A stretch of 64,000 bases of DNA from the human T2T-CHM13v2.0 reference genome, Homo sapiens: NCBI RefSeq assembly GCF_009914755.1, contig NC_060928.1; one strand, given 5' to 3'. Numbering within the stretch: the stretch's first letter is position 1; every line of letters begins with the position of its first letter. A program made the translations under genes and the position numbers. A model generated the notes under the pieces. It was not told where the DNA came from, ran no database searches, and saw only the letters and a list, made by a program, of their open reading frames with translations. This document shows positions 130-1,262 of the stretch, piece after piece.

Positions 130-1262
130 CCATATAATAGCCAGTATGATAGCCAGTTAGGTACCAAGAGATGATCACACTTCCCAAAGCAAAGCATCAT
201 TAAGAGACTCTGGACATATGAGAGGTGGGAGTGGAGGAATTACTGATGGTCCAGAGGGAAATGGAGGCAGCCAGCATGACAGGAAATGGGGTGCTGGTGG
301 AGGAACATTGAATTTTAGACCTGGCTTTCCTGGTCTCAGTCCTGACCCTGGCATGGGGGTGGCAGAAGGAGAAAAGAGTTTCATGGAGTAGCTTTTGATT
401 TGGTGTTATCTGGTTTATTTCCAGGAGACCTGGAGTTCTCATTTTCATCCATTGGAACTTGACTTTCATTCTCTCGAGTGTTCTATTCTATATTATTAGC
501 TACTTCAGAGGTTGGGGAAAGTAGTAGATCAGGCAGATTTTGCTCTTCTCCATTTCCATATCCAGTGTACACCGCAACATGGGTTTTTCCATTAAAATCA
601 ACCTAAGTGGCTCAGGCTGTGGTGGCTTACGCCCGTAATCCCAGCACTTTGGGAGGCTGAGGCGGGAGAACCGCTTGAGCCCAGGAGTTCAAGACCAGCC
701 TGGGCAATGTAGTGAGAACCTGTCTCTACGAAAAATAAAAATTAAGTCCCAGCTACTCGGGAGGCTGAGGCAGGAGGATCGGTTGGGCCCGAGAGGTGGA
801 GGCTGCAGTGAGCTGTGATGGTGCCACTGCACTCCAACCTGGGTGACAGAGCAAGATGCTGTCTCAAAATAATAACAATAAAAATAAAATACAATCAACT
901 GAAGCAATGATGTAGCTGGGTGAAGGCAGCTGTCTTCTGACCTAATGGCAGAACATGCGCCACCAGCTTTCCTGTGTTTCAAGAGAGTTGCATATTCTAT
1001 TTTTGGCTCTTATTCTTCTTGGGTTTTCTTTTAGGTGTGACATTTGGTTATCTGAAGTTTCACAAATGTCATTCTTGTGAATGGTGGCTTAAATGAAGCA
1101 TGGCTTTATCATAAGCTTCTATCAATGCTGTATCATTCCAAACGTCACAATCATCACTCTGGCCTGCACTGCCCAGGAACAACACCCAGTCCTCCTATCC
1201 AGGACTCCATCTCCACCTCTACCACCACCACCGCTGCTGCCCATGGCCATGCTGAGCCTACT
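130..1262 (-). pseudogene. Processed pseudogene of SMN (survival motor neuron, SMN1/2-like), exons 1-6 fused, Alu-interrupted
   Basis: Minus-strand translation across frameshifts: ATG at 1250 [136 protein letters not shown] (YG box). Colinear with SMN, no introns, multiple stops and frameshifts. Confidence 0.93.
609..891 (+). mobile_element. AluJ-like SINE inserted in the SMN retrocopy (Tudor region)
   Basis: Alu arms with GAGCCCAGGAGTTC diagnostic and A tail; degenerate TSD aaaatcaacctaagt/acaatcaactgaagc. Confidence 0.9.

What the first reader, a model, noticed from the sequence alone, without database searches (positions are those of the whole stretch)
130..1262. Hidden ancient SMN retrocopy with ancestral-looking residues
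Seen: stitching minus-strand frames gives colinear SMN exons 1-6 (Gemin2-binding N-terminus, basic region, Tudor domain, polyproline, YG box) with no introns. It is easy to miss because an Alu splits it and no ORF is long. Several residues match my recollection of non-primate SMN better than human SMN (MAMGS, ETSD, LK before the Tudor domain, HFLSCW). Inference: it predates the MLT2 and AluJ inserted in it, so it is an early-primate or eutherian-age record of SMN mRNA. It may be unannotated and could attract SMN probe or read cross-mapping.
Basis: partly seen in the sequence, partly recalled or inferred. Interest (0 to 1): 0.75.

Follow-up and report, generated by a model that had tools for sequence, protein, structure and literature searches.

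The report
SMN fossil mRNA keeps intron 7
This is a dead, already partly annotated DNA copy of the spinal-muscular-atrophy gene's mRNA; like a second copy on chromosome 9 it lacks every intron except intron 7, which likely means early primates usually did not splice out the intron that today's SMA splicing drug targets.

Summary
It is a full-length SMN retrocopy, window 1265 to about -2545 (minus strand, running out of the window), with an A-tail and a 9/10 target-site duplication, split by four Alus and one LTR. New point: exons 1-7 are joined precisely, but intron 7 is kept (82% identity, 388 of 445 bases aligned). The only other SMN coding retrocopy found (chr9) does the same (86%): 14 of 14 other junctions spliced, 0 of 2 for intron 7. 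Both copies predate the simian radiation. Both lack the human +5 G of the exon 7 donor and the +13/+20 Gs around ISS-N1, and keep two AGs upstream of the exon 8 acceptor that humans lost. Best reading (0.65): early-primate germline SMN mRNA mostly ended in one exon7+intron7+exon8 terminal exon. Against: the exon 8 acceptor already looks complete, there are only two copies, and their independence is likely but unproven. The element shows no sign of function. Ten paper searches found no description.

The parts
1269..1278 (-). 5' copy of the target-site duplication (9/10 match to the 3' copy, which lies outside the window at about -2540..-2549)
1159..1265 (-). 15-nt 5' UTR plus SMN exon 1 (ATG at 1250)
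1088..1158 (-). exon 2a (Gemin2-binding), 87%
974..1087 (-). exon 2b, 82%
471..973 (-). exon 3 (Tudor), 86%, split by an Alu
601..892 (+). Alu in exon 3, older (J-like; label recalled) cluster, TSD 12/15
325..470 (-). exon 4, 87%
244..324 (-). exon 5 (proline tract 15 nt shorter than human), 89%
131..243 (-). exon 6 (YG box), 87%
1..129 (-). Start of a solo LTR (MLT2-type; name recalled, subfamily not confirmed) inserted at the exon 6/7 junction with a 5-bp TSD; it runs out of the window to -579. Beyond it, outside the window (places under 1; add 186372000 for T2T chr4): Alu -585..-887; exon 7 with the stop codon -888..-938; RETAINED INTRON 7 -939..-1359 (82% over 388 of 445 nt); exon 8 -1360..-2545 (83%, split by Alus at about -1535..-1833 and -1879..-2166), AATAAA, A-tail and 3' TSD
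   Evidence: locus L023

Best explanation
This is a broken, full-length DNA copy of an SMN mRNA that lacks introns 1-6 but keeps intron 7, likely inserted by L1 machinery in an early primate, and together with a second such copy on chr9 it likely records a time when germline SMN mRNA mostly ended in one exon7+intron7+exon8 terminal exon. Steps. Shown: (1) A-tail, TSD, 7 of 7 upstream junctions spliced, intron 7 present, in both copies; (2) stops and frameshifts, none of the stops shared; (3) both differ from human at donor +5, intron +13 and +20, exon 7 +8, and keep AGs at -22 and -34 of the exon 8 acceptor; (4) the last ~100 nt of exon 8 belong to a dispersed repeat family. Inferred: (5) that old repeat supplied a nearby poly(A) site, replacing the distal last exon used by pig and mouse; (6) a weak donor (A at -1, likely no G at +5) left the 444-nt stretch mostly unspliced, harmless because the stop codon is in exon 7; (7) on the simian line donor and acceptor were strengthened, making intron 7 efficiently spliced and exon 6-to-8 skipping possible. 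The copy itself is most likely inert.
For: Junction table and controls: ends of introns 1-6 score 20-37 against the copies (shuffle maxima 24-36), intron 7 ends score 157/180 and 57/79. Intron 7 sequence occurs at 4 places only: SMN1, SMN2, chr4, chr9; protein and DNA searches found no third coding copy. TSDs 9/10 and 11/13, flanks share only Alus. Human branch since the split is 0.04 in coding sequence against 0.11 in intron 7 and exon 8, as expected if the shared states are those of the working gene. At 10 simian-shared derived residues chr4 has the outgroup state at 7, the simian state at 3; chr9 4, 1, other or missing 5. Pig has T at intron +13 and A at exon 7 +8, like both copies, and pig and mouse use other, distant last exons (PMC4043917). 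In human cells the exon/intron 7 transcript occurs only at low levels (PMC5854547). Published MaxEnt scores: native donor 8.57; a comparable site with A at +5 scores 4.06, one with G 8.40 (PMC5716214 supplement; not the same 9-mers). A predicted capuchin isoform ends in an exon-8-frame peptide, so exon 6-to-8 splicing is at least predicted in New World monkeys.
Against: Only two copies. Both already have a near-complete exon 8 acceptor (branch-like CTAAT, pyrimidines, CAG), which is easier to explain if the intron was already in use. The two +5 bases differ (T, A), so two independent decays from G are possible (about 1%), and I could not see the pig, mouse or lemur +5 base (figures not held). 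A protein tree joins the two copies (UFBoot 94, short branch) and they share 4 non-CpG changes at invariant sites against 1.4-1.5 expected (P 0.07; one or two may be alignment artefacts), so a short common history is not excluded. pN/pS on the human branch (0.51) is not significantly below that of the copies (Fisher P 0.41). Dating is rough: one inserted Alu scores 0.20, older than its host, which cannot be literal.
Confidence: 0.65

Rival explanations
1. Intron 7 was already a normally spliced intron; both copies came from a minority, partly spliced or intron-retaining RNA (semi-processed pseudogenes), and the +5 changes arose after insertion.
For: Intact acceptor in both copies; the exon 7 donor is inherently weak and SMN1 minigenes retain intron 7 (PMC13203021); retention occurs naturally at low level; the two +5 bases differ.
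Against: Needs a minor species sampled twice with all 14 other introns gone (about 1% if retention were 10%, an assumed figure), and two hits at the same +5 base (about 1%). Retained introns in recent retrocopies are called rare corner cases (bioRxiv 2020.06.07.139212, passage only).
Confidence: 0.22
2. The two copies are not independent: both come from one source with a dead donor (a short-lived SMN duplicate or a transcribed first retrocopy), so they say little about the working gene.
For: Tree groups them; shared changes 4 vs 1.5 expected; same 5' start next to each TSD; the chr9 copy has spawned a chrX fragment, so such copies can be transcribed and re-copied.
Against: No shared stop codon; 1 shared gapped codon of 10 and 5, in the proline tract; the excess of shared changes is under 1% of sites against 9-11% total; neither copy carries the other's flank; of 17 residues shared by the copies and not human, 12 are outgroup states clearly or partly and 5 are not, 3 of these at CpG sites.
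Confidence: 0.12
3. DNA-level duplication of part of the SMN gene.
For: An intron is present.
Against: Seven introns, 159 to 13,658 nt, are precisely absent; A-tail at the SMN poly(A) end; TSDs.
Confidence: 0.01

Closest known systems
RefSeq pseudogene LOC100132090 (SMN1 pseudogene)
   Same: Same locus and strand (hub annotation, 130-601).
   Different: The annotation covers 472 nt of a copy spanning about 3.8 kb; it omits exons 1-2b, half of exon 3, exon 7, intron 7 and exon 8.
SMN processed copy on chr9 (G000:C9:20345216-20347030; recalled as SMNP)
   Same: Full length, same 5' start, introns 1-6 gone, intron 7 kept, same ancestral states.
   Different: No large insertions, shorter branch (0.07-0.11 against 0.13), own TSD and flanks, different disabling changes.
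Processed and semi-processed pseudogenes used as fossils of old transcripts (class names recalled)
   Same: L1 hallmarks; records an RNA isoform of the past.
   Different: The kept intron is the medically central 3' UTR intron of SMN, and it is kept in both copies found.
Human exon/intron 7-retained SMN transcript (PMC5854547)
   Same: Same RNA structure; stop codon in exon 7, so the protein is full length.
   Different: Minor or drug-induced in human cells, where it lowered SMN protein; here apparently the form that was copied twice.
Pig Smn1 and its two processed pseudogenes (PMC4043917)
   Same: T at intron +13, A at exon 7 +8; SMN retrocopies arise in other mammals.
   Different: Pig splices exon 7 to exons 8.9 kb and more downstream; its pseudogene alignment had no readable text.

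Membership tests
Processed pseudogene (L1-mediated retrocopy) | Colinear homology to the parent mRNA | tested here: met
   80.4% over 1793 aligned bases, exons 1-8 in order
Processed pseudogene (L1-mediated retrocopy) | All introns absent | tested here: not met
   7 of 8 absent; intron 7 present. So semi-processed relative to today's human gene.
Processed pseudogene (L1-mediated retrocopy) | Poly(A) remnant at the mRNA 3' end | tested here: met
   AATAAA and A-run at about -2515..-2545
Processed pseudogene (L1-mediated retrocopy) | Target-site duplication | tested here: met
   9/10, short and A-rich, so modest on its own
Processed pseudogene (L1-mediated retrocopy) | Disabled reading frame | tested here: met
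   4 stops and 10 gapped codons on the human frame
Semi-processed pseudogene | Some introns spliced, at least one kept with its ends | tested here: met
   GT and AG ends of intron 7 present in both copies
Semi-processed pseudogene | The kept stretch was a spliced intron when copied | not testable with these tools
   Needs prosimian or tarsier RNA and DNA; no such genomes are held
Functional retrogene | Open frame under purifying selection | tested here: not met
   Stops and frameshifts throughout; pN/pS 0.67
Functional retrogene | Own transcript | not testable with these tools
   No expression data; hub lists no lncRNA exon here (it lies antisense within the span of predicted lncRNA LOC112268472)
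MLT2A1/MLT2A2 LTR (simian, 45-65 Mya; PMC8559712) | Listed or classified as MLT2A | tested here: inconclusive
   TG..CA ends, 5-bp TSD, 3489 candidates, 39 near-full-length copies at 77-79% among 40 scored; look-ups in the paper's table with recalled coordinates found no row

The most novel reading that the evidence does not exclude
Human SMN intron 7 is a young intron, carved out of a 3' UTR on the simian stem. Early primates had a dead exon 7 donor and a repeat-derived poly(A) site; regaining +5 G, losing two upstream AGs and gaining the ISS-N1 Gs built the exon 7 versus exon 8 competition. SMN2-type exon 7 skipping, and so SMA as we know it and the nusinersen target, would be simian inventions, and these two pseudogenes are the fossil of the state before.
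Probability: 0.3. Interest if true: 0.72.

Novelty: new member of a known kind. Interest (0 to 1): 0.5.

Why it matters
The copy itself is an ordinary dead pseudogene. Its value is as a record: it gives the early-primate sequence and apparent splice state of the exon 7-intron 7-exon 8 region that decides SMN2 skipping. Papers note that the human last exon is unlike that of mouse and pig but the passages read do not say how it arose. The copies supply a short list of human-lineage changes (donor +5, intron +13 and +20, exon 7 +8, acceptor -22 and -34, a 25-nt deletion and a 24-nt insertion in intron 7) that can be tested one by one in standard SMN minigenes. They also correct the extent of the RefSeq annotation and flag intron-7-like DNA on chr4 and chr9 for primer design.

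Tried and rejected
Empty-site test for the 5' flank (recalled as ERVL-like): 1 short hit besides self, not usable. Search for exon-8-frame tails in other mammals: of 185 candidates only the capuchin query itself scored over the whole tail; no lemur or tarsier row among the 120 listed, weak because of 90% clustering. Multi-species intron 7 alignments in papers are pictures or too large. LTR subfamily look-up failed. One recalled paper id on pseudogenes as transcript fossils is not held; that idea is cited from recall only. Earlier scan findings were not available. The pN/pS contrast between branches was not significant. The first pairwise alignment misplaced the start of exon 7 inside the LTR; corrected by TSD analysis, and the chr4 exon 7 start stays uncertain by one base. 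Structure prediction and complex jobs were not run: a frameshifted pseudogene of a solved protein gains nothing. Rejected: unannotated; eutherian-wide age as the favoured date; functional retrogene; DNA duplication; serious short-read cross-mapping.

Full report
1. Observation. The minus strand of 130-1262 carries SMN pieces in order, confirmed by Pfam and PDB. Searching the genome with 130-600 gave 10 matches: self, four exons each of SMN1 and SMN2, and one contiguous match on chr9; 892-1300 gave 7 of the same kind. The hub annotation already lists the locus as pseudogene LOC100132090, but only 130-601.

2. Real extent. I fetched SMN1, the chr9 locus and 8 kb upstream of the window. Places under 1 lie outside the window. 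After exon 6 an LTR starts at 129 and ends at -579, with a 5-bp duplication lying across the exon 6/7 junction, so intron 6 was gone before it inserted. An Alu follows, then exon 7 (-888), intron 7 (-939..-1359) and exon 8 (to about -2545, split by two more Alus), with AATAAA, an A-run and a 9/10 TSD. Overall identity to SMN1 is 80.4% over 1793 bases.

3. Intron 7 is kept, twice. In both copies all 7 upstream junctions are joined with no intron bases (the chr4 6/7 junction is read after leaving out the LTR and Alu; the chr9 one is uninterrupted). Ends of introns 1-6 score at shuffle level against the copies, intron 7 far above. Intron 7 aligns at 82% (388 of 445) on chr4 and 86% (417 of 445) on chr9 and is found at only 4 places in the genome. 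A protein search found no third coding copy (14 matches, all on chr4, chr5, chr9); these searches score only the best candidates, so very decayed copies could be missed.

4. Ancestral states. Against 23 named SMN proteins chosen for length and taxon spread from the 120 listed, at 18 sites where human differs from the non-primate majority chr4 has the outgroup residue at 13, human at 2, other at 3; chr9 10, 2, 6; for scale macaque 4, 14, 0 and colugo 15, 1, 2. At 10 simian-shared derived sites chr4 is outgroup-like at 7 and simian-like at 3. In a protein tree (ends and proline tract masked) the copies fall outside the simian clade (99) next to colugo with weak support (75, 57). The single strepsirrhine row is a 'SMN-like' loris model and may not be the true ortholog.

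5. Age. Non-CpG branch lengths: chr4 0.127-0.134, chr9 0.074-0.105, human 0.105-0.110 in intron 7 and exon 8 and 0.040 in coding sequence. Internal scale: of 83 Alus, a cluster of 69 averages 0.072 and a cluster of 14 averages 0.142 (S-like and J-like by recalled motifs); the four inserted Alus score 0.087, 0.099, 0.203 and 0.069, the third being an outlier older than its host. The LTR branch is about 0.07 from pairwise distances to its 11 best copies of 40 scored, which biases young. With Alu spread from about 65 Mya, peak about 40 Mya (PMC5694776, passages), I infer roughly 55-70 Mya for chr4 and somewhat less for chr9: early primate, before simians.

6. Independence. For: separate TSDs and flanks, no shared stop (chr4 15, 83, 154, 190; chr9 22, 91, 261, 284), short human coding branch. 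Against: the tree joins the copies (UFBoot 94, branch 0.027); at 341 invariant non-CpG sites they share 4 changes against 1.4-1.5 expected (P 0.07), and 3 against 1.85 at 13 CpG sites. A long shared history is excluded by these counts; a brief one is not.

7. Splice signals. Donor: human GGA|GTAAGT, chr4 GGA|GTAATT, chr9 TGA|GTAAAT. ISS-N1 (+10..+24; PMC13203021, passages): both copies have T at +13 and A at +20 where human has G; pig also has T at +13 and its silencer is inactive (PMC4043917, parts 1-3 of 6 of the text and passages). Exon 7: C at +6 (SMN1-like; chr4 read with a one-base shift at the TSD), A at +8 like pig, and no extra codon before the stop, like colugo. Acceptor: the last 20 nt are nearly the same in all three, but the nearest upstream AG is at -22 in both copies and -29 in human, and the AG at -34 is also lost in human. 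Published scores for related donors with A at -1 are 4.06 with A at +5 and 8.40 with G (these two also differ at +3; PMC5716214 passages and supplement part 2); I could not score the exact 9-mers.

8. Origin of the 3' end. Pig and mouse end in distant, mutually homologous exons unlike human exon 8; mouse and human exon 8 share poor homology (PMC6451121, passages). With the chr9 exon 8 region as query, 32 of 39 matches are dispersed loci at 72-87% over about 45-125 nt, most at the last 100 nt, so the poly(A) end lies in an old interspersed repeat (L1M-type by recall). A predicted capuchin isoform ends in a peptide that matches human exon 8 directly after exon 6, so the acceptor was probably in use by the simian ancestor; this is a gene model, not an experiment.

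9. Mechanism. L1-type retroposition copies polyadenylated RNA (established knowledge). Two copies made from RNA with seven introns removed and the eighth stretch present are most simply explained if that was the common germline form. It would be harmless, as the stop lies in exon 7; in human cells this form is minor and lowers protein when forced (PMC5854547, passages). I put 0.65 on 'mostly unspliced then', 0.22 on chance sampling of a minor form, 0.12 on one shared source. The stronger claim, that the intron did not exist at all, gets 0.3 because the acceptor already looks complete and the donor state in outgroups is unseen.

10. Cross-mapping. Longest exact runs 31 nt (chr4) and 35 nt (chr9); best 150-nt windows 132 and 138 matches; +10..+27 (recalled as the nusinersen footprint) has 4 and 3 mismatches. 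Low risk for reads, some for primers.

11. Novelty. Ten searches of the held library (seven aimed at SMN) gave no listing on human SMN retrocopies, on the pseudogene names, returned 0 and 1 paper, the one on another disease (listing only, not read). PMC8348669 passages mention no such copy. PMC8559712 was read in passages and bioRxiv 2020.06.07.139212 in two passages. Subscription journals, figures and several supplements with multi-species intron 7 alignments could not be seen and may bear on this. Verdict: known pseudogene, under-annotated, carrying an apparently unreported and directly testable clue to the origin of SMN intron 7.

Noticed in passing
L030:1498-1630 (G000:C23:67005782-67005900): A 135-nt piece on chrX is 98% identical to the 3' end of the chr9 SMN copy, including that copy's own TSD, against 83% to SMN1; it has an A-tail and a 16-bp TSD of its own. 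Likely a recent second-generation retro-fragment, showing that the chr9 copy's end was transcribed and polyadenylated in a germline.
   Followed up: partly
L022:4216-6030 (G000:C9:20345216-20347030): Second full-length SMN retrocopy with intron 7 kept; lacks the canonical AATAAA but has ATTAAA at its end.
   Followed up: yes
L021:783-1227 (G000:C5:71408783-71409227): SMN1 intron 7 reads 445 nt in this assembly, the SMN2 copy 444, the length given in papers. Variant or assembly error not checked.
   Followed up: no
window 1280-1620 and L023 below about 5450: Both flanks of the retrocopy look like one older ERVL-type internal sequence (recalled resemblance) that the copy interrupted; the search gave one 63-nt hit.
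   Followed up: partly
window 1-129 and L023:7421-8000: The LTR landed exactly on the exon 6/7 junction with an Alu directly beside it; if it is MLT2A it could be an embryo promoter near lncRNA LOC112268472 (PMC8559712); untested.
   Followed up: partly
L021:783-1227 (SMN1 intron 7): Relative to both copies the human line lost about 25 nt near intron position 200 and gained about 24 nt, a short tandem duplication, some 50-85 nt before the acceptor.
   Followed up: no
P0035 (Cebus imitator model): The exon-7-skipped capuchin model reads exon 8 in another frame, giving a 27-residue tail instead of the 4-residue human one.
   Followed up: partly
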